A DNA stretch of 64,000 nucleotides, taken from the IMG/VR virus record IMGVR_UViG_3300034198_015569, positions 1 through 64,000 of that record; one strand, written 5' to 3'. Position numbers and translations under genes: made by a program. This document shows positions 2,802-63,592 of the stretch, in pieces (position 1 is the first letter of the stretch; each line of letters begins with the position of its first letter). The stretch is from a virus. The notes beneath the pieces are model-generated. The model worked only from the letters and a program-made list of their open reading frames with translations, was not told the DNA's origin and made no database searches.

Positions 2802-3899
2802 ATGATCATCAATAATCACGCACAGCATATTATGAAAGTTATTGAAGACGCTGGCTATCAGGCTCGTGTCTGCGGTGGCGCTGTGCGTGATTATGTCATG
2901 GGAAATGAGCCTAAAGATTGGGACATTGCAACTACCGCTCTCCCTGAAAAGGTGATGAAGCTTTTTCCGCATACAATTCCAACTGGCCTTCAGCACGGTA
3001 CGGTTTCCGTGGTCATTGAAAATGAAGTATTTGAAGTGACCACGCTTCGAAAGGACGTGGAAACGGACGGGCGCCATGCTGTTGTGGAATTCACGGACAA
3101 TTGGAGGACCGATGCCCTTCGCCGGGATTTTACCATGAATGCCATGTACATGGATATTAATCGTAATCTTTATGATTACTTCGGCGGCGTGAATGACATT
3201 ACCAATGGAGTTATTCGCTTCGTTGGAAACGCTGCTGATCGAATCAAGGAAGACTATTTGCGCATCCTGCGGTACTTCCGTTTTATGTCTCGATATGACA
3301 TGGATAATGCAGATATCGAAACCCTAGTTGCCATCAGAGAAAATGTGATGGGATTGGAAAAGATTTCTGTTGAACGTATTTGGAGTGAGATTAAGAAGAT
3401 TTATTCTTATCATCAAAATATCCATAATATTACTCAACTAATGAACATGTGTGAAGTGTGGAAGGGTGTGGGTATGAAAAACCGCATGTTTTCTGCCGCA
3501 TCTTCTTCAAATGATTACAAGTATAATAGTCCTCTAATGAATGCCTTTTTGCCGATTATTTTTGAGCTTGATACGCTCAAGGAACAGTGGAAGCTTTCAA
3601 TTGATGAAAAGAATAAATATGAAATCATCATAGAGATTGCCAAGCAAAAGAGTGTTGAAGATATTATCTATCTTGCCTATCAGAAGGAAGAAAACGTCCG
3701 CTGGTATCTTGGGCATGATTCTGTCTTTGATCCTGGCAAGGTTGGTGAGGCTGCTAGGTGGCTTCGCAATAATCCTGTGCTGCCGTCTTTCCCCTTCAAT
3801 GGTGATACACTGAAGACCGAAGGATTTGCCGGGAAGAAGCTGGGCGATGAACTGAAGCGCCGCAAGCTGGAATATATAAAGACGATGGTTAATGGGTAA
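2802..3899 (+). CDS. cca: CCA tRNA nucleotidyltransferase (class II)
   Basis: GGAVRD, DWDIAT, EVTTLRKD..TDGRHA, DALRRDFTMNA, RIKEDYLRILRYFRF and ERIWSE motifs. Confidence 0.93.
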   Translation: MIINNHAQHIMKVIEDAGYQARVCGGAVRDYVMGNEPKDWDIATTALPEKVMKLFPHTIPTGLQHGTVSVVIENEVFEVTTLRKDVETDGRHAVVEFTDNWRTDALRRDFTMNAMYMDINRNLYDYFGGVNDITNGVIRFVGNAADRIKEDYLRILRYFRFMSRYDMDNADIETLVAIRENVMGLEKISVERIWSEIKKIYSYHQNIHNITQLMNMCEVWKGVGMKNRMFSAASSSNDYKYNSPLMNAFLPIIFELDTLKEQWKLSIDEKNKYEIIIEIAKQKSVEDIIYLAYQKEENVRWYLGHDSVFDPGKVGEAARWLRNNPVLPSFPFNGDTLKTEGFAGKKLGDELKRRKLEYIKTMVNG

Positions 3900-5133: not shown

Positions 5134-5429
5134 AAATAAATGAAAGAAAATGCCATTTTTACATAAATTATCATCTCCGGGATGGTCGAAAGAATTCAAT
5201 ACTGAATATGAAGCTGTTCTTGAATTAAGAAAATATATTTGTGAAACTTGTTTGCTTCACAATCCTTTAATTGTAAATGAAAACGGCGAATTAGAGGAAT
5301 TCGAATTAGATGATCCTATAGTAGATGTTATCTATGAAGGAAAACGATTTGAATGTCTTGACAAGAACACCTTATTAAGTACATCATGTGGATGCGAATT
5401 TATGATTGATGATGAAAAAATTTAAATAA

Positions 5430-5512
5430 GCTAGGGTGGCTCAGTGGCGACAGCACTGCCTTTGTAACGCAGTATTCAAACATCGGGGGTTCGAGTCCCC
5501 CTCCTAGCACCA
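5430..5512 (+). tRNA. tRNA-Thr(TGT), extended variable region
   Basis: GCTAGGG/TCCTAGC acceptor, loop TTTGTAA, GGGGG-TTCGAGT-CCCCC T-arm, CCA; C31-C39 mismatch. Confidence 0.78.
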
Positions 5513-5515
5513 ATT

Positions 5516-5590
5516 GCCGCAATAGCCGAGTGGTAAGGCGCCTCTTTCGTAAAGAGTAGATCGGGGGTTCAATTCCCTCTTGCGGCTCCA
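5516..5590 (+). tRNA. tRNA-Thr(CGT)
   Basis: Anticodon arm CTCT-TTCGTAA-AGAG; canonical D and T arms; CCA. Confidence 0.88.
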
Positions 5591-59630: not shown

Positions 59631-60167
59631 ATGACAGTATTTGTAACATCCGATACGCATTTTGGACATAAACGCATAATTGAACTTTGTAATCGTCCAT
59701 TTCCTTTAGAAGATAAAACTTTCGAAATGGATGAAGTTCTAATCAAAAACTGGAATGCTAAAGTCCGACCCAATGACACAATTTATCATTTGGGCGATTA
59801 TACCTATCATTATGATTCTGATTATCTCAGAGAACAGTTTGATAGGTTGAACGGACACAAATTCCTAATTGAAGGCAACCATGATCCCGCATACGTGAAG
59901 AATCTTCCGTGGGATGGTGTCTTTAAATACCAAGAAATTAAATACAATAAGAAAGTTTTTGTTCTTTTCCACTATCCGATTCTGGAATGGAATGGGTTTC
60001 ACAGAAACAAAGATGAATTGGTCTATATTCATTTACATGGACACATTCATTCGACTCCTTTAGACTCTAAATACCCGAAAATTCGGGGACGAATGGATGT
60101 AGGTGTTGATGCCAATGGTTTCACACCACTATCATTGGATGAAGTTATTCGATCCGTCGAATACTAA
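59631..60167 (+). CDS. calcineurin-like metallophosphoesterase
   Basis: SDTHFGH, HLGD, GNHD, HYP, HGHIH, DVGVD. Confidence 0.9.
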   Translation: MTVFVTSDTHFGHKRIIELCNRPFPLEDKTFEMDEVLIKNWNAKVRPNDTIYHLGDYTYHYDSDYLREQFDRLNGHKFLIEGNHDPAYVKNLPWDGVFKYQEIKYNKKVFVLFHYPILEWNGFHRNKDELVYIHLHGHIHSTPLDSKYPKIRGRMDVGVDANGFTPLSLDEVIRSVEY

Positions 60168-61052: not shown

Positions 61053-61100
61053 AGAACGATTTCAGCACTTAAACGCTTGGTATGCAAAAAAGTCGTTCTG
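61053..61100 (+). ncRNA. stem-RNA unit 1 (cargo: GC-TTGGTAT-GC mini-loop)
   Basis: AGAACGATTTCAGCA...AAGTCGTTCTG; late promoter TATAAATA at 61012. Confidence 0.65.
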
Positions 61101-61121: not shown

Positions 61122-62537
61122 ATGAATACTTTCGCACGTAATGTAGCATCAAACGTTGGTGCCTCTTCTCCTAAGATTGCTAAGACCCGCACTGAAAATG
61201 GTGCAGTTGCTTACACTTCATCCGGCAAGGCCAATCTTGATTTGTTTGCTGCAATTGGCGCAGCCCGCTCCCGTGATCTAACCAATGATTTCAAGGCGGC
61301 TCTTAATGAGAATCCTGAATTGGCAACACGTATCCTTCTATGGGCTCGTGATTGTCGTGGTGGTGCTGGTGAACGTTCAACCCCTCGCAAGCTTCTAGCT
61401 GTGCTTGAGACTGTAGACGTTGAACTAGCAGAGAAGGTGCTTCGTAAGCTACCAGAACTTGGCCGTTGGGATGACCTTCTAGATAGCGTTAAGACCCCTC
61501 GCCTTCGTGAGATTGGTTTCGGCCTAATCCGTGACGCTTTGGCGGCTGGTAACGGTCTGTGCGCAAAGTGGATGCCACGTAAGGGTGATGAGGCTATCCA
61601 GCTTCGTTCATTCCTTGGTTGGTCTCCTAAGCGTTACCGTAAGACCCTGGTTTCACTAACCAAGGTTGTAGAACAGCAAATGTCTGCTAAGCAGTGGAGT
61701 GAGATTAAGTATCAATCCGTTCCTTCTGTTGCCATGGCACGCTCGATGAAGGCTTTCAGCCGTAACGATACTGTTCGTTTTGGCGAATACTTAAATAGAG
61801 TAAAAAAGGGCGAAACAAAGATTAATGCCTCTGTGGTATTCCCACATGACATTATTCGCTCTCTAAAGAGCGGACAAACTGCCGGTGCGGATGCTCAATG
61901 GAATGCATTGCCTGATTTTGTTGCATCGGACGAAAACTTTCTTCCAATTTGTGACGTATCAGGATCAATGAGTGTAGCTGTATCGGGTACGGTTTCTGCA
62001 CTAGACGTTTGTCTTGGTCTTGGTCTGTATCTTTCAGAACGTGGTAAAGGTGCCTTTAAGGATATCTTTATGACTTTCTCTGCCCGCCCAACTCTTCAGA
62101 AGGTAAGTGGTTCACTAAGTGAACGTATGAACCAAATGAATCGTGGTGCTTGGGATATGAACACGGACATGGAAGCTGCATTTAATGCTGTACTAGATCA
62201 CGGTATTAAGTACAAAGTTCCGCAGGCAGATATGCCAACCACACTTATTGTCTTCTCCGATATGGAGTTTGATCAGTGTATTCGTAATGGAAATGATACC
62301 ATCTATCGCAATATGCGTAAGCGTTTTGCTGATGCTGGTTACAATGTTCCTAAGGTTGTGTTTTGGAATCTTAATTCCAGAAATAAGCAGTTCCCTGTAA
62401 CTGCAAAAGACCCAAACACTGCACTAGTGTCAGGCTTCAACCCAATTCTTGTTAAGAATCTTCTTGGCAAGGCGAATATCACTCCAGAACAAGTAATGCT
62501 TGACACTGTCATGGTAGAGCGTTATAATCTAGATTGA
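61122..62537 (+). CDS. Ro60/TROVE-like protein with C-terminal vWA (DUF2828-like)
   Basis: TENGAVAY..SG..LDLF, WARDCRGGAGER, GRWDDL, AKWMPR, Y.SVPSVAM, MIDAS DVSGSM, FSDMEFD, VVFWNL, LVSGF. Confidence 0.85.
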   Translation: MNTFARNVASNVGASSPKIAKTRTENGAVAYTSSGKANLDLFAAIGAARSRDLTNDFKAALNENPELATRILLWARDCRGGAGERSTPRKLLAVLETVDVELAEKVLRKLPELGRWDDLLDSVKTPRLREIGFGLIRDALAAGNGLCAKWMPRKGDEAIQLRSFLGWSPKRYRKTLVSLTKVVEQQMSAKQWSEIKYQSVPSVAMARSMKAFSRNDTVRFGEYLNRVKKGETKINASVVFPHDIIRSLKSGQTAGADAQWNALPDFVASDENFLPICDVSGSMSVAVSGTVSALDVCLGLGLYLSERGKGAFKDIFMTFSARPTLQKVSGSLSERMNQMNRGAWDMNTDMEAAFNAVLDHGIKYKVPQADMPTTLIVFSDMEFDQCIRNGNDTIYRNMRKRFADAGYNVPKVVFWNLNSRNKQFPVTAKDPNTALVSGFNPILVKNLLGKANITPEQVMLDTVMVERYNLD

Positions 62538-62538
62538 G

Positions 62539-62563
62539 AGTAGGGGATTCGTTCCCTACTTTC
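62539..62563 (+). terminator. hairpin after the Ro60-like gene
   Basis: AGTAGGGGA-TTCG-TTCCCTACT followed by TT. Confidence 0.65.
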
Positions 62564-62572
62564 CTTAAGTTT

Positions 62573-62632
62573 AGGGCAATTTCAGCAAACATTTTAAATT
62601 TTTCTTTGTACGAAAAACTAAAAGTTGCCCTG
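62573..62632 (+). ncRNA. stem-RNA unit 2 (cargo: anticodon-like stem-loop, TGT)
   Basis: AGGGCAATTTCAGCAA...TTTTTC-TTTGTAC-GAAAAA...AAGTTGCCCTG. Confidence 0.7.
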
Positions 62633-62638
62633 TAATTA

Positions 62639-62702
62639 AGAACAATTTCAGCAAGTATTTAATACTTTTCCGCCAACAATTGGAAAATAAAACGTTGTTC
62701 TG
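62639..62702 (+). ncRNA. stem-RNA unit 3 (cargo: permuted acceptor minihelix with GCCA)
   Basis: AGAACAATTTCAGCAA...TTTTCC-GCCA-ACAATT-GGAAAA...GTTGTTCTG. Confidence 0.65.
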
Positions 62703-62720
62703 TTAAAATAAAGGATTATT

Positions 62721-62975
62721 ATGAATTTAGATGATGTTACTGCTGGTAATATGCGAACACTTTCCGAAAGATCGCTTCTTACTTTAAAAGAGGATGAATT
62801 TAGGAAAATTCGAAATCTTATTCATAATGCGGCAAATTCTGGTGCATATTATATTCAATGTGATATAAAGTATCCAGAAACAGAGAATATGTTAAAAGAT
62901 TTAGGTTTTAAGTTTAAAATTATGACCTTTAATAAAGATGTTACCACGTATAAAATTACATGGTGGATTGATTAA
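62721..62975 (+). CDS. small hypothetical protein embedded in the RNA array
   Basis: 84 aa with AAGGA SD. Confidence 0.7.
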   Translation: MNLDDVTAGNMRTLSERSLLTLKEDEFRKIRNLIHNAANSGAYYIQCDIKYPETENMLKDLGFKFKIMTFNKDVTTYKITWWID

Positions 62976-62981
62976 GAATTG

Positions 62982-63105
62982 AGAACCATTTCAGCAAATT
63001 TACTTTTATTTGCCTACGAAGCAAAAGGTGTCGGTTCGAGCCCGGCCCACCACACCAACTATGTGGTGGTAGTTTAATTGGATAGAACTTTATAAGGTGG
63101 TTCTG
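62982..63105 (+). ncRNA. stem-RNA unit 4 carrying a circularly permuted tRNA-Arg(ACG)
   Basis: AGAACCATTTCAGCAA...anticodon arm, T-arm, 3' acceptor + ACCA, linker, 5' acceptor, D-arm...GTGGTTCTG. Confidence 0.8.
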
Positions 63106-63122
63106 ATAAAAGATTAGAATTA

Positions 63123-63178
63123 AGAACGATTTCAGCAACTTAAAAATTTCACTGTTAATGAAAACCAAAGTCGTTCTG
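63123..63178 (+). ncRNA. stem-RNA unit 5 (cargo: anticodon stem-loop, GTT)
   Basis: AGAACGATTTCAGCAA...TTTCA-CTGTTAA-TGAAA...AAGTCGTTCTG. Confidence 0.75.
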
Positions 63179-63187
63179 ATAAAATTT

Positions 63188-63297
63188 AGGATATTTTCAG
63201 CAATCTAAATTTCAAACAATGTAACATGGGTTCGAATCCCATACATTCGAAAGAATGTTAGCCAAGTGGTAAGGCAATTGTCAAAAAAGTTATCCTG
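63188..63297 (+). ncRNA. stem-RNA unit 6, YrlA-like tRNA mimic
   Basis: T-arm ATGGG-TTCGAAT-CCCAT, closed acceptor ACATTC-GAAA-GAATGT, D-arm GCC-AAGTGGTAA-GGC, all inside the AGGATA/TATCCT stem. Confidence 0.8.
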
Positions 63298-63425
63298 TTA
63301 AAATTATGGGCAAGACCCGAAATTCTTATGCGTCGGGAGATATTACAAGCGTGTTAATGGGGGCTATGTAATAATTAAATTTCCGGTTGACAAAAAATTA
63401 ACTTGGTGTATAAATAATAGAATAT

Positions 63426-63500
63426 TGCTGGCGGGAGGTTTAGAATCTCATTGGTCTCATAAACCAAAGAACTGGTGCAAATCCATGGCTTCAGCAACCA
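63426..63500 (+). tRNA. tRNA-Met(CAT), atypical
   Basis: TTGGT-CTCATAA-ACCAA; ends CAGCAACCA; T-arm irregular. Confidence 0.62.
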
Positions 63501-63506
63501 ATTTAA

Positions 63507-63592
63507 TGCGGGGACAAGCCGGAGTGGCTAACTAGCCTCATAAGCTAGAGATTAATTTCTAATGGAATGTGCAACTCATTCCCCCGCAACCA
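63507..63592 (+). tRNA. tRNA-Met(CAT), fMet-like acceptor, long variable arm
   Basis: TGCGGG.../CCCGCAACCA; CTAGC-CTCATAA-GCTAG; T-loop TGCAACT. Confidence 0.65.

What the first reader, a model, noticed from the sequence alone, without database searches (positions are those of the whole stretch)
62982..63105. Complete circularly permuted tRNA-Arg(ACG) nested in a carrier stem
Seen, in order: anticodon arm TTTGC-CTACGAA-GCAAA (63009-25), variable AGGT, T-arm GTCGG-TTCGAGC-CCGGC, 3' acceptor CCACCAC + A + CCA (63047-57), linker ACTAT, 5' acceptor GTGGTGG, TA, D-arm GTTT-AATTGGATA-GAAC. All tRNA parts are present, with the break between the D-arm and anticodon stem. Known: permuted tRNA genes occur in some algae and archaea, whereas YrlA lacks an anticodon arm and a free CCA. 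Inference: cutting the linker would give a two-piece, chargeable tRNA tethered to the carrier stem; alternatively it is an uncharged mimic.
Basis: partly seen in the sequence, partly recalled or inferred. Interest (0 to 1): 0.85.

Follow-up and report, generated by a model that had tools for sequence, protein, structure and literature searches.

The report
Permuted tRNA-Arg replica on phage Y-like RNA
This 124-base phage RNA gene holds every part of an arginine tRNA in rearranged order, mounted on a conserved "handle" shared by its neighbour RNAs next to a Ro60-like protein gene, so it is most likely a tRNA look-alike partner RNA of that protein and not a working tRNA gene.

Summary
Window 62982-63105 (+) holds an anticodon arm, variable loop, T arm, 3' acceptor + ACCA, a 5-nt linker, 5' acceptor and D arm, all inside a 7-bp closing stem. 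Put back in canonical order, ARAGORN calls tRNA-Arg(ACG) in 4 of 4 variants and in 0 of 1000 shuffles.

It is not a lone oddity. It is one of seven tandem or nearby small RNAs in this phage with the same handle: a 7-bp stem, UUUCAGCAA, cargo, the returning stem, then G. They flank a DUF2828/vWA (Ro60-like) gene and follow a perfect sigma-70 promoter. The handle recurs beside this gene in many phages, including Felix O1-like coliphages. I collected 18 elements with this full-tRNA design; 6 carry NCCA, and the other 12 have no NCCA after the acceptor stem.

Best reading: a Y-RNA-like tRNA mimic of YrlA type with a different handle and protein family. RNase P may nick it, as happens to M. smegmatis YrlA. 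Charging is possible but untested; decoding is unlikely.

I found the family neither in Rfam 15 nor in the papers searched. This scan has already noted it many times on other DNA.

The parts
62982..63105 (+). Whole element E3: handle plus circularly permuted tRNA-Arg(ACG)-like cargo (124 nt)
62982..62988 (+). 5' strand of the 7-bp closing stem (AGAACCA)
   Evidence: Pairs with 63098-63104. The stem covaries among the sibling units: AGAACGA, AGGGCAA, AGAACAA, AGGATAT, AGGACTA (61053 unit read)
62989..62997 (+). Handle motif UUUCAGCAA, the inferred protein-contact strand
   Evidence: 8 exact copies in the window against 1.48 expected; 5 of them cluster at 62580-63203. NNNCAGCAA follows the stem in 134 same-strand frames of 80 related loci, against 10 on the opposite strand
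63009..63025 (+). Anticodon arm: 5-bp stem with 7-nt loop CUACGAA (U33, anticodon ACG, A37)
   Evidence: The same loop on covarying stems occurs in L086, L119 and L104. It competes with an alternative pairing to the motif
63026..63029 (+). Variable loop AGGT (4 nt)
63030..63046 (+). T arm GTCGG-TTCGAGC-CCGGC
   Evidence: formed in the minimum-energy fold
63047..63057 (+). 3' acceptor strand CCACCAC, discriminator A, CCA
   Evidence: 19 of the phage's 20 ARAGORN tRNAs also encode CCA
63058..63062 (+). Linker ACUAU closing the acceptor helix. Predicted RNase P site between U63062 and G63063 (inferred)
   Evidence: precedent in M. smegmatis YrlA (PMC4201824)
63063..63071 (+). 5' acceptor strand GTGGTGG plus U8 A9
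   Evidence: 7-bp helix in the minimum-energy fold
63072..63088 (+). D arm GTTT-AATTGGATA-GAAC (A14, G18 G19, A20, A21)
63098..63105 (+). 3' strand of the closing stem (TGGTTCT) plus conserved G
62500..62528 (+). Sigma-70-type promoter TTGACA-17-TATAAT (12 of 12) in front of the RNA array
61122..62537 (+). 471-aa DUF2828 + DUF7788 (vWA) protein, Ro60-like; inferred protein partner
   Evidence: Pfam; PHROG 850 'RNA-binding protein'; weak VWA_2 in 12 of 30 and vWA_Ro60 in 5 of 30 homologues; TROVE clusters are the nearest named neighbours in the ESM Atlas
61053..61100 (+). Sibling handle RNA E0 (motif TTTCAGCAC; small hairpin cargo)
62573..62632 (+). Sibling handle RNA E1 (hairpin cargo)
62639..62702 (+). 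Sibling handle RNA E2 (hairpin cargo)
63123..63178 (+). Sibling handle RNA E4 (cargo TTTCA-CTGTTAA-TGAAA, an Asn-type anticodon hairpin)
63188..63297 (+). Sibling handle RNA E5: YrlA-type permuted tRNA body, acceptor sealed by GAAA, no anticodon loop
   Evidence: YrlA 25.2 bits

Best explanation
E3 is a small non-coding RNA of the phage's 'CAGCAA-handle' family, a Y-RNA analogue.

The 7-bp closing stem and the adjoining UUUCAGCAA strand are a common handle. It most likely docks the RNA onto the neighbouring Ro60-like DUF2828/vWA protein (inferred by analogy with Ro60 and Y RNA). The cargo folds into a complete L-shaped replica of tRNA-Arg(ACG), which the RNP displays to some tRNA-recognising factor.

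The array is transcribed from the strong promoter at 62500-62528 and cut into units (inferred). The acceptor helix is 7 bp, with G+1, U-1 and ACCA. Host RNase P is therefore likely to nick between U63062 and G63063. That would leave a two-piece mimic held together by the acceptor and closing stems. Its 3' end could be trimmed to ACCA or rebuilt by the phage's CCA-adding enzyme (inferred; precedent is M. smegmatis YrlA).

I think the purpose is bait or tether in the conflict over tRNAs: a decoy for tRNA-targeting nucleases or modifiers, or a platform for tRNA repair. I do not think it decodes.

My odds:
- handle-family partner RNA: 0.75
- nicked by RNase P: 0.4
- arginylated: 0.15
- used on the ribosome: 0.05
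For: Shown:
- All cloverleaf parts are present, and the rearranged form is called tRNA-Arg(ACG).
- Seven units in the 88-kb record share the handle with covarying stems (the 61053 unit read). Five exact motif copies cluster directly downstream of the DUF2828 gene.
- A 12-of-12 promoter lies just upstream.
- In 80 loci fetched through the protein alone, 144 stem+NNNCAGCAA+stem+G frames were found: 134 on the gene's strand and 10 opposite.
- The handle carries quite different cargos: bare hairpins, tRNA bodies without an acceptor stem, YrlA-type bodies, and full permuted tRNAs.
- 18 elements have E3's design, with 18 different acceptor helices and 18 different anticodon stems. One is conserved in 239 Felix O1-like phage records and has no annotated feature in 11 of the 12 rows listed.
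- E3 scores weakly on Rfam YrlA: 28.7 bits, E 0.0012.
- The phage encodes a CCA-adding-type nucleotidyltransferase and an Rnl2-type RNA ligase, and a phosphoesterase 1 kb upstream.
- A review passage links phage TROVE proteins to an RNA-repair platform with a tRNA-like partner (PMC7824862).
Against: - No RNA data exist, so expression, ends, nicking and protein binding are all inferred.
- The Ro60 likeness of the protein rests on weak vWA hits, language-model neighbours and other people's annotations.
- The minimum-energy fold does not form the anticodon hairpin.
- Features that a mere mimic would not need are all kept (tRNA rules recalled): ACCA, discriminator A, A20, C35, G36, and the full set of tertiary-pair nucleotides.
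- CGU, CGC and CGA make up 59% of the phage's Arg codons, and no ordinary tRNA-Arg lies in the 88 kb held. A decoding role is therefore not excluded.
Confidence: 0.65

Rival explanations
1. Two-piece working tRNA. RNase P cuts the linker, the 3' end is trimmed to CCA, ArgRS charges it, and the split tRNA decodes CGU/CGC/CGA while still carrying the handle as an extra arm at position 26/27.
For: - The cloverleaf is complete, with ACCA.
- A20, C35, G36 and A73 are present (identity rules recalled).
- 59% of the phage's Arg codons would be read by this anticodon, and no tRNA-Arg is among the 20 tRNAs of the 88-kb record.
- 19 of 20 phage tRNAs encode CCA, as E3 does.
- M. smegmatis YrlA is cut by RNase P and receives CCA.
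Against: - The same handle carries cargos that can never be tRNAs.
- 12 of the 18 elements of this design lack NCCA after the acceptor stem.
- The three other Arg(ACG)-loop elements have a 7-nt D loop, AATGGTA or a close variant. By my numbering it has no A at position 20.
- A roughly 45-nt helix-plus-motif emerging at 26/27 would probably clash on the ribosome (inference).
- The record is only 36% complete, so a normal tRNA-Arg may lie elsewhere.
Confidence: 0.07
2. True circularly permuted tRNA gene of the Cyanidioschyzon type. The ends are joined into a circle, and RNase P plus a 3' nuclease then release an ordinary 76-nt tRNA-Arg.
For: The gene order is 3' half, short linker, 5' half, with an encoded CCA. 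The phage encodes an RNA ligase.
Against: - The termini form a plain 7-bp stem followed by a conserved single-stranded motif, not a bulge-helix-bulge.
- Joining at the frame would leave about 45 extra nucleotides between positions 26 and 27.
- The handle is shared with non-tRNA cargos.
- No RtcB was found in the record.
- Bacteria and phages are not known to have the splicing endonuclease (recalled).
Confidence: 0.03
3. Evolutionary debris: a decaying remnant of a tandem tRNA-Arg duplication that happens to lie in the RNA array, with no function of its own.
For: - The layout of CCA plus a short A/T-rich linker looks like the junction of two adjacent tRNA genes in this phage, where CCA is followed by 3-5-nt spacers.
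- The element has no close relative in cultured phages.
Against: - Every helix is intact, and the conserved tertiary nucleotides are all kept.
- It is framed by a perfect 7-bp handle stem and exact motif.
- The design recurs in 18 independent elements.
- It is no closer to real tRNA-Arg(ACG) genes (0.50-0.64 identity, 23 genes) than to the median of the tRNAs compared (0.566). That argues against a recent copy.
Confidence: 0.05

Closest known systems
YrlA-type bacterial and phage Y RNAs bound by Ro60/Rsr (Rfam RF02553; Chen et al. 2014, PMC4201824)
   Same: - A small RNA whose 5' and 3' ends form a stem carrying a protein-binding motif on the 5' strand.
- A cargo that is a permuted tRNA-like domain: T arm, closed acceptor helix, D arm.
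- Encoded on the same strand next to a ring-protein gene, several RNAs per locus.
- M. smegmatis YrlA has a 7-bp acceptor, is nicked by RNase P and gains CCA.
   Different: - The handle motif is UUUCAGCAA, not GNCGAAN0-1G.
- The neighbouring protein is DUF2828/DUF7788, which the TROVE HMM does not detect.
- The Rfam score is 28.7 bits against a gathering score of 69.
- E3 keeps a separate, complete anticodon arm, so the permutation point is 26/27 and not the anticodon loop.
- ACCA is encoded and does not need to be added.
Circularly permuted tRNA genes of red and green algae and some archaea (recalled: Soma et al. 2007)
   Same: The 3' half lies upstream of the 5' half, joined by a short linker after the CCA region. 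The rearranged sequence is a complete cloverleaf.
   Different: - There is no bulge-helix-bulge at the termini.
- The termini carry a handle shared with non-tRNA RNAs.
- Ligation at the termini would not restore a normal tRNA.
- The host is a bacteriophage.
- In the listing of the 'permuted tRNA' + 'phage' search (9 papers, 8 listed, titles and abstract starts only), none concerns a phage-encoded permuted tRNA.
Phage Ro60 with Yrl RNAs (Thermus phage phiLo; PMC12135203)
   Same: A phage-encoded ring protein (HEAT repeats plus vWA) binds small RNAs encoded beside its gene and can recruit host PNPase (passages).
   Different: Those RNAs carry the CGAA motif and, in the passages I saw, are described as stem-bulge-stem with no tRNA-like cargo. 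The protein is a recognisable Ro60.
Dictyostelium Class I RNAs (Rfam RF01414; Kjellin et al. 2021, PMC7919456)
   Same: The handle architecture is the same: a short terminal stem, a conserved motif ending in CAGCAA right after the 5' strand, a variable middle, and a 3' end of ...CUG(U) (passages). The siblings E4 and E1 give weak RF01414 hits of 24.3 and 19.7 bits.
   Different: All hits are below the gathering score of 41.5. E3 itself gives no hit. Class I RNAs are eukaryotic, about 60 nt long, and are not described with tRNA-like cargo. Common descent is untested here.

Membership tests
Canonical tRNA gene (Rfam RF00005 / ARAGORN) | Contiguous 5'-acceptor, D, anticodon, T, 3'-acceptor order, detected by tRNA finders | tested here: not met
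   ARAGORN makes no call at E3. There is no Rfam hit at gathering score. The only hit is 25.2 bits against a gathering score of 29, and it uses a false upstream acceptor strand. The native rotation is not called.
Canonical tRNA gene (Rfam RF00005 / ARAGORN) | All four arms and the conserved loop nucleotides | tested here: met
   After rearrangement, 4 of 4 variants are called tRNA-Arg(ACG). U8, A14, G18 G19, A21, U33, T54 T55 C56 and A58 are present (numbering recalled).
Circularly permuted tRNA gene (algal/archaeal type) | 3' half upstream of the 5' half, joined by a linker | tested here: met
   Only rotations cut at the ACCA/linker zone (16 of 80) are called.
Circularly permuted tRNA gene (algal/archaeal type) | Termini form a bulge-helix-bulge splice motif, so that joining them gives a normal-length tRNA | tested here: not met
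   The termini form a 7-bp stem followed by the unpaired UUUCAGCAA and 9-11-nt spacers. Joining them would insert about 45 nt at 26/27.
Circularly permuted tRNA gene (algal/archaeal type) | Circular intermediate and a mature 76-nt tRNA | not testable with these tools
   No RNA run was listed.
YrlA (RF02553) | Covariance-model score at or above the gathering score of 69 bits | tested here: not met
   28.7 bits, E 0.0012.
YrlA (RF02553) | GNCGAAN0-1G Ro-binding motif near the 5' end | tested here: not met
   UUUCAGCAA stands there instead. The motif definition comes from PMC4201824.
YrlA (RF02553) | T arm, closed acceptor-like helix and D arm inside a terminal stem | tested here: met
YrlA (RF02553) | Within about 4 kb of, and on the same strand as, a TROVE-domain Ro60 gene | tested here: inconclusive
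   E3 lies 445 nt downstream of a DUF2828/vWA gene on the same strand. The TROVE HMM has no match in the record. Ro60 likeness rests on weak vWA_Ro60 hits (5 of 30) and Atlas neighbours.
CAGCAA-handle RNAs beside DUF2828 genes (not in Rfam 15 or the papers searched) | 7-bp terminal stem, then NNNCAGCAA on the 5' strand, with the 3' strand followed by G | tested here: met
   The same frame occurs 134 times on the gene strand and 10 times opposite in 80 loci.
CAGCAA-handle RNAs beside DUF2828 genes (not in Rfam 15 or the papers searched) | Same-strand neighbourhood of a DUF2828 gene, in arrays | tested here: met
   (phage garuso, mycobacteriophage Aegeus); 7 of 22 loci found by an RNA pattern alone hold the gene.
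Dictyostelium Class I RNA (RF01414) | Covariance-model score at or above 41.5 bits | tested here: not met
   No hit for E3. E4 scores 24.3 bits and E1 19.7 bits. No RF01414 hit appears at gathering score in 17 related loci.

The most novel reading that the evidence does not exclude
E3 is nicked by RNase P, keeps or regains its ACCA end and is arginylated. This would make it a naturally split, circularly permuted, chargeable tRNA riding on a Ro60-like ribonucleoprotein. It would be the first permuted or split tRNA outside algae and archaea, and the first aminoacylated Y-type RNA. A charged Arg end could serve as bait for toxins that attack charged tRNA or CCA ends, or it could even decode.
Probability: 0.12. 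Interest if true: 0.85.

Novelty: new variant of a known kind. Interest (0 to 1): 0.62.

Why it matters
Ro60 with Y RNA is a conserved but poorly understood RNA-surveillance system. What the tRNA-like domain of bacterial Y RNAs is for remains unknown.

This element shows a second, widespread phage version with a different protein family and a different handle. In it the mimic can be a whole tRNA, with anticodon loop, arginine identity nucleotides and an encoded CCA end. That points to tRNA-recognising enzymes as the targets and gives precise, testable predictions: RNase P nicking, CCA status, charging.

Related elements sit, with no annotated feature in 11 of the 12 rows listed, in 239 Felix O1-like phage records that infect laboratory E. 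coli and Salmonella strains. The question can therefore be taken to the bench directly.

Tried and rejected
- **RNA evidence:** no RNA holder listed. Laying the two DNA holders gave identical sequence across 62450-63450, with no variants and no joints, so there is no population covariation. X3 laid nothing.
- **Protein fold:** The PDB sequence search gave only a chance hit at E 0.36. The TROVE HMM has no match in the record.
- **Origin of E3:** blastn of E3 against cultured phages gave 9 partial hits at E 0.3, all to tRNA-Ala genes. The best identity of the rearranged form, among the ARAGORN tRNAs of 60-100 nt (716 called in all held loci), was 0.727, to a tRNA-Arg(CCT). The 23 tRNA-Arg(ACG) genes scored 0.50-0.64, the same as the overall median of 0.566. 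No donor tRNA was found.
- **Formal covariation count:** MAFFT alignments A2 and A3 align the T arm, 3' acceptor strand and D arm but break the 5' acceptor strand and the anticodon stem. I built no covariance model and ran no pair count. The arm table stands in for them, and its pairing percentages are circular because pairing was a selection criterion.
- **The 18 elements** were hand-picked. They are not an exhaustive census.
- **The 84-aa ORF** between E2 and E3 (62721-62975) has no Pfam or PHROG hit and no tblastn hit in any held locus.
- **The minus-strand 70-aa ORF** over E3 was not pursued, because the strand bias and structure point to an RNA on the + strand.
- **L114:** I considered that this ordinary-order tRNA-Arg(ACG) with a roughly 52-nt insert at 26/27 shows the handle can be an internal arm of a working tRNA. 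I could not recognise a handle stem in the insert and leave it as a side note.
- **Supplements are closed.** Supplemental Tables S1/S2 of Chen et al. 2014, which list the 22 phages with YrlA, could not be seen. They may bear on whether any DUF2828 phage RNA was already listed.
- **Searches behind 'not in print':** DUF2828 (5 papers, none on RNA); YrlA/tRNA-like/Y RNA; TROVE/bacteriophage/Y RNA/tRNA; Ro-like/mycobacteriophage; Felixounavirus/tRNA-like (0 papers); permuted tRNA/phage. In addition, Rfam 15 was scanned on the window and on 17 loci.
Full report
**Observation.** I read window 62700-63400 and indexed each segment by script.
- closing stem AGAACCA (62982-88) / TGGTTCT (63098-104), followed by G63105
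- UUUCAGCAA (62989-97)
- an 11-nt spacer
- anticodon arm TTTGC-CTACGAA-GCAAA (63009-25)
- variable AGGT
- T arm GTCGG-TTCGAGC-CCGGC (63030-46)
- 3' acceptor CCACCAC, A, CCA (63047-57)
- linker ACTAT (63058-62)
- 5' acceptor GTGGTGG (63063-69), TA
- D arm GTTT-AATTGGATA-GAAC (63072-88)
- a 9-nt spacer

In native order no tool calls a tRNA. ARAGORN lists 20 tRNAs in the window and none here. Rfam at gathering scores lists 15 tRNA hits and none here. Rearranged in a script (5' acceptor to D arm, then anticodon arm to CCA), ARAGORN calls tRNA-Arg(ACG) in 4 of 4 junction variants. Controls:
- 0 of 1000 dinucleotide shuffles of the rearranged sequence are called.
- 16 of 80 rotations of the 80-nt cargo are called, all as tRNA-Arg(ACG).
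- All 16 have the cut between cargo positions 42 and 57, the ACCA/linker/first-acceptor zone.

By tRNA numbering and rules that I recall (no tool gave them), the replica also keeps U8-A14, A15-U48, G18/G19 with T55/C56, T54-A58, A9 with U12-A23, G45, G46, U33 and A37. It also keeps the arginine identity set A20, C35, G36 and A73. The loop CUACGAA is the loop I recall for E. coli tRNA-Arg(ICG).

**A caveat on folding.** The minimum-energy fold of 62979-63112 forms the closing stem and the T, acceptor and D arms. It pairs UUUGC (63009-13) with the GCAAAU of the handle motif instead of with GCAAA (63021-25). For 62982-63105 the minimum is -34.4 kcal/mol. The cloverleaf-in-frame is -27.4, and the best fold with the motif held unpaired is -30.3. 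The anticodon hairpin therefore needs the motif to be occupied, for example by protein. In the relative L086 the hairpin is in the minimum-energy fold.

**Surroundings.** E3 is one of a family.
- The exact word TTTCAGCAA occurs 8 times in the window against 1.48 expected. Five copies lie at 62580-63203 on the + strand.
- Each follows a 7-nt strand whose complement, followed by G, lies 32-100 nt downstream: E1 62573-62632, E2 62639-62702, E3, E4 63123-63178, E5 63188-63297.
- A unit with TTTCAGCAC lies at 61053-61100. A further unit lies outside the window at 65671-65794 of the 88,427-nt virus record.
- The stems differ but stay complementary: AGGGCAA, AGAACAA, AGAACCA, AGAACGA, AGGATAT, AGGACTA.
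- The cargos differ. E1, E2 and E4 hold small hairpins; E4's loop CUGUUAA is an Asn-type anticodon loop. E5 and the 65671 unit are YrlA-type bodies (T arm, closed acceptor, D arm) without an anticodon loop. E3 is a whole tRNA.
- A 471-aa gene ends at 62537. It matches Pfam DUF2828 plus DUF7788 and PHROG 850 'RNA-binding protein'.
- A 12-of-12 sigma-70 consensus promoter (TTGACA-17-TATAAT, 62500-62528) lies in the gene's last codons and points into the array.
- The record also encodes a PolyA_pol/CCA-adding-type enzyme (2865-3218), an Rnl2-type RNA ligase (70124-70711) and a phosphoesterase (59631-60167). It has no RtcB.

**Is the protein Ro60-like?** The evidence is indirect.
- Records of cultured phages call homologues 'putative Ro sixty-related protein', 'Ro-like RNA binding protein', 'vWFA protein' or 'DUF2828'.
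- Across 30 aligned homologues the C-terminal domain gives weak VWA_2 hits in 12 and vWA_Ro60 hits in 5.
- In the ESM Atlas, once DUF2828 clusters are left out, 24 of the 30 nearest clusters by language-model features share the TROVE/vWA_Ro60 family set. The score of 0.93 with 165 shared features makes this a lead, not proof.
- Against: the TROVE HMM finds nothing in the record, while its controls ring.
- Against: no solved structure matches by sequence.

Earlier agents of this scan report a predicted Ro60-like fold for homologues. I did not verify that.

**Relatives.**
- The protein has 261 confirmed relatives in IMG/VR, of which 80 were kept. It has tblastn matches in 711 cultured-phage records: Felix O1-like, Listeria, Staphylococcus, Enterococcus, Campylobacter, Vibrio and mycobacteriophages.
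- In the 80 loci, a mechanical scan for '7 nt + NNNCAGCAA + 20-259 nt + perfect complement + G' found 144 frames. Of these, 134 are on the gene's strand and 10 opposite. Some same-strand hits lie inside coding sequence and are false.
- In E. coli phage garuso, four frames lie among the tRNA genes just downstream of its 'vWFA protein'. Mycobacteriophage Aegeus has one right after its 'Ro-like RNA binding protein'.
- At gathering scores, Rfam 15 finds only tRNA in 17 such loci: 70 hits, all RF00005. The handle family is therefore not catalogued there.

**E3's own design recurs.** A search of IMG/VR for CAGCAA, then CTACGAA, then GGTTCRA gave 42 stretches.
- Most are chance matches in coding DNA or ordinary tRNAs.
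- L086, L119 and L104 (the same as L123) are handle RNAs with an Arg(ACG)-loop hairpin on a different stem (CTTT/AAAG, TTCT/AGAA, TCT/AGA), followed by a T arm, closed acceptor and D arm.
- L092 carries the same loop in an ordinary-order tRNA body whose acceptor stem is replaced by the handle.

Of 133 unique matches, 25 parsed completely as T arm + acceptor hairpin + D arm + closed frame. One of those, L176, is just two adjacent tRNAs.

From these and the gene-anchored loci I collected 18 elements with a separate 7-nt-loop hairpin in the anticodon position.
- They have 18 different acceptor helices (124 of 126 positions paired), 12 different T stems (89 of 90 paired) and 18 different anticodon stems.
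- The loops match Arg ACG (4 elements), Asn, Ile and other anticodon types (my reading of the loops).
- Pairing was a selection criterion, so the percentages are circular. The diversity of sequences that still pair is the evidence.
- One of the 18 is the garuso element. It is present in 239 phage records, 237 with at least 80% coverage, and has no annotated feature in 11 of the 12 rows listed.
- In several elements (L071, L084, L029, L082) a 3-bp helix (ACG/CGT or similar) precedes the hairpin. There the handle leaves from within the 5' strand of the anticodon stem. In E3 it leaves at 26/27.

**The CCA question.** Directly after the 7-nt 3' acceptor strand, N-CCA is present in 6 of the 18 elements: E3, L104, L082, L029, L244 and L195. 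Two more have CCA without a discriminator. It is present in 6 of the 25 parsed elements, including the false L176, and as C-CCA-AT in the 65671 unit. Chance would give about 1 in 64 per element (my arithmetic).

Two readings fit. The first is descent: 19 of this phage's 20 tRNA genes encode CCA followed by short A/T-rich spacers. A 3' part + spacer + 5' part of two tandem tRNA copies would look exactly like E3. The second is use. The other 12 of the 18 have no NCCA, and most are closed by short loops (AGAT, TACG, GGTAAC, TTGGTC(A)...). That shows the design works without an encoded CCA end. The three other Arg(ACG)-loop elements have a 7-nt D loop, AATGGTA or a close variant, which by my numbering has no A at position 20. 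I take this as weight for 'mimic' over 'working tRNA'. E3 may be a younger or more faithful copy. No donor tRNA was found.

**Mechanism.**
- Shown: the sequence architecture, the shared handle with covarying stems, the strand-specific association with the DUF2828 gene, the promoter consensus, and the recurrence of the design.
- Inferred: transcription as an array and cutting into units; docking of stem plus CAGCAA onto the protein, by analogy with Ro60, which mainly contacts the 5' strand motif beside the terminal stem (PMC4201824 passage); and L-shaped folding.
- Predicted: RNase P cleavage between U63062 and G63063. The basis is the 7-bp acceptor stacked on a 5-bp T stem, G+1-C72, U-1 and RCCA (determinants recalled).

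There is a direct precedent for that cleavage. M. smegmatis YrlA is cut at the corresponding site in vivo and by M1 RNA in vitro. Its 5' half ends in CCA after CA addition, and both halves co-precipitate with Rsr. The authors attribute this to its 7-bp acceptor stem (passages).

For function I commit to bait or tether. The RNP presents a faithful tRNA-Arg replica to a tRNA-recognising factor. Candidates are host anticodon nucleases or CCA-end-modifying toxins (decoy), or repair enzymes. The phage's own CCA-adding enzyme, RNA ligase and phosphoesterase fit a tRNA damage-and-repair setting. A review passage describes phage TROVE proteins as part of an RNA-repair platform with a tRNA-like partner (PMC7824862).

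Decoding is not excluded. CGU, CGC and CGA make up 59% of Arg codons in 60 long ORFs, and there is no tRNA-Arg in the 88 kb held. But the record is 36% complete, and the handle would protrude from the hinge of the L.

**Comparison with what is known.** E3 works like a YrlA-type Y RNA but fails YrlA membership on three tested features: score (28.7 against 69 bits), motif, and a recognisable TROVE neighbour. It shares gene order with algal permuted tRNA genes but lacks their splice-type termini. Its handle has the same layout as Dictyostelium Class I RNAs: a 6-bp terminal stem, an 11-nt motif ending in CAGCAA, and ends AAG...CUGU (PMC7919456 passages). The only computational link is weak RF01414 hits to the siblings E4 and E1.

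Known phage Y-like RNAs carry the CGAA motif: those of mycobacteriophages in Chen et al., and Yrl1/2 of Thermus phage phiLo.

**Novelty and standing.**
- I found no description of the handle family or of a phage-encoded complete permuted tRNA. The searches were made, plus Rfam 15.
- This scan has noted the family before on other DNA. 152 notes in at least 128 genomes hold the search words. They include a permuted tRNA that retains its anticodon arm, and the Dictyostelium resemblance. On this genome there are notes on the array, the cargo hairpins and E5.
- This report adds several points for E3: the ARAGORN and rotation controls, the competing fold, the promoter, and the NCCA statistics with open and sealed variants.

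**Not done.** No RNA data; no protein model; no formal covariation statistics; supplements of the cited papers not seen.

Noticed in passing
window 63508-63592 (+), and 63434-63493: A tRNA-shaped sequence that ARAGORN does not call. It has a 7-bp acceptor TGCGGGG/CCCCGCA followed by A-CCA, an anticodon arm CTAGC-CTCATAA-GCTAG (CAU), a 16-nt variable region, and a T arm GAATG-TGCAACT-CATTC with a non-standard loop. Just upstream lies a weaker tRNA-like stretch (Rfam tRNA 18.4 bits) ending in CTTCAGCAACCA. A TTGACA...TATAAA promoter-like site precedes them at about 63385.
   Followed up: no
G000 65671-65794 (outside the window): A seventh handle RNA (AGGACTA-TTTCAGCAA...TAGTCCT-G). It has a YrlA-type permuted tRNA body, and its acceptor helix TCTCCCG/CGGGAGA is closed by C-CCA-AT, so CCA is encoded here too.
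   Followed up: partly
L114 reverse strand 5299-5426 (IMGVR_UViG_3300031420_000495, 257 kb): Inside a long array of ordinary tRNAs sits an ordinary-order tRNA-Arg(ACG) with a roughly 52-nt insert between the D arm and the anticodon stem. This is the same place where E3's handle leaves, and the insert contains CAGCAA. ARAGORN does not call it.
   Followed up: partly
L127 4716-5551 (Escherichia phage garuso, MN850566 60016-60851): Four CAGCAA-handle RNAs lie between the annotated tRNA genes of a Felix O1-like coliphage, just downstream of its 'vWFA protein'. The last one (5425-5551) has E3's full-tRNA design with a sealed AGAT acceptor loop. It is conserved in 239 phage records and has no annotated feature in 11 of the 12 rows listed.
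   Followed up: partly
window 63124-63178 and 62574-62632: The short sibling RNAs give weak hits to the Rfam model of Dictyostelium Class I RNAs (24.3 and 19.7 bits; gathering score 41.5). The layout is the same: terminal stem...CAGCAA motif, variable middle...CUG end.
   Followed up: partly
L086 2415-2420, L119 and L212 acceptor loops: Three sealed elements of E3's design close the acceptor helix with UUGGUC(A). Its UGGU is complementary to a tRNA ACCA end. The open elements have ACCA(A) at the same place. This may be coincidence.
   Followed up: no
window 62536-62563: A 12-bp hairpin GAGAGTAGGGG-ATTC-GTTCCCTACTTTC lies directly after the predicted start of the array transcript and across the stop codon of the DUF2828 gene. 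It may be a leaky terminator for the gene or a 5' stabiliser for the array RNA.
   Followed up: no
window 62721-62975 (+): An 84-aa ORF with a plausible ribosome-binding site sits between handle RNAs E2 and E3. It has no Pfam or PHROG match and no tblastn match in any of the roughly 250 held loci.
   Followed up: partly
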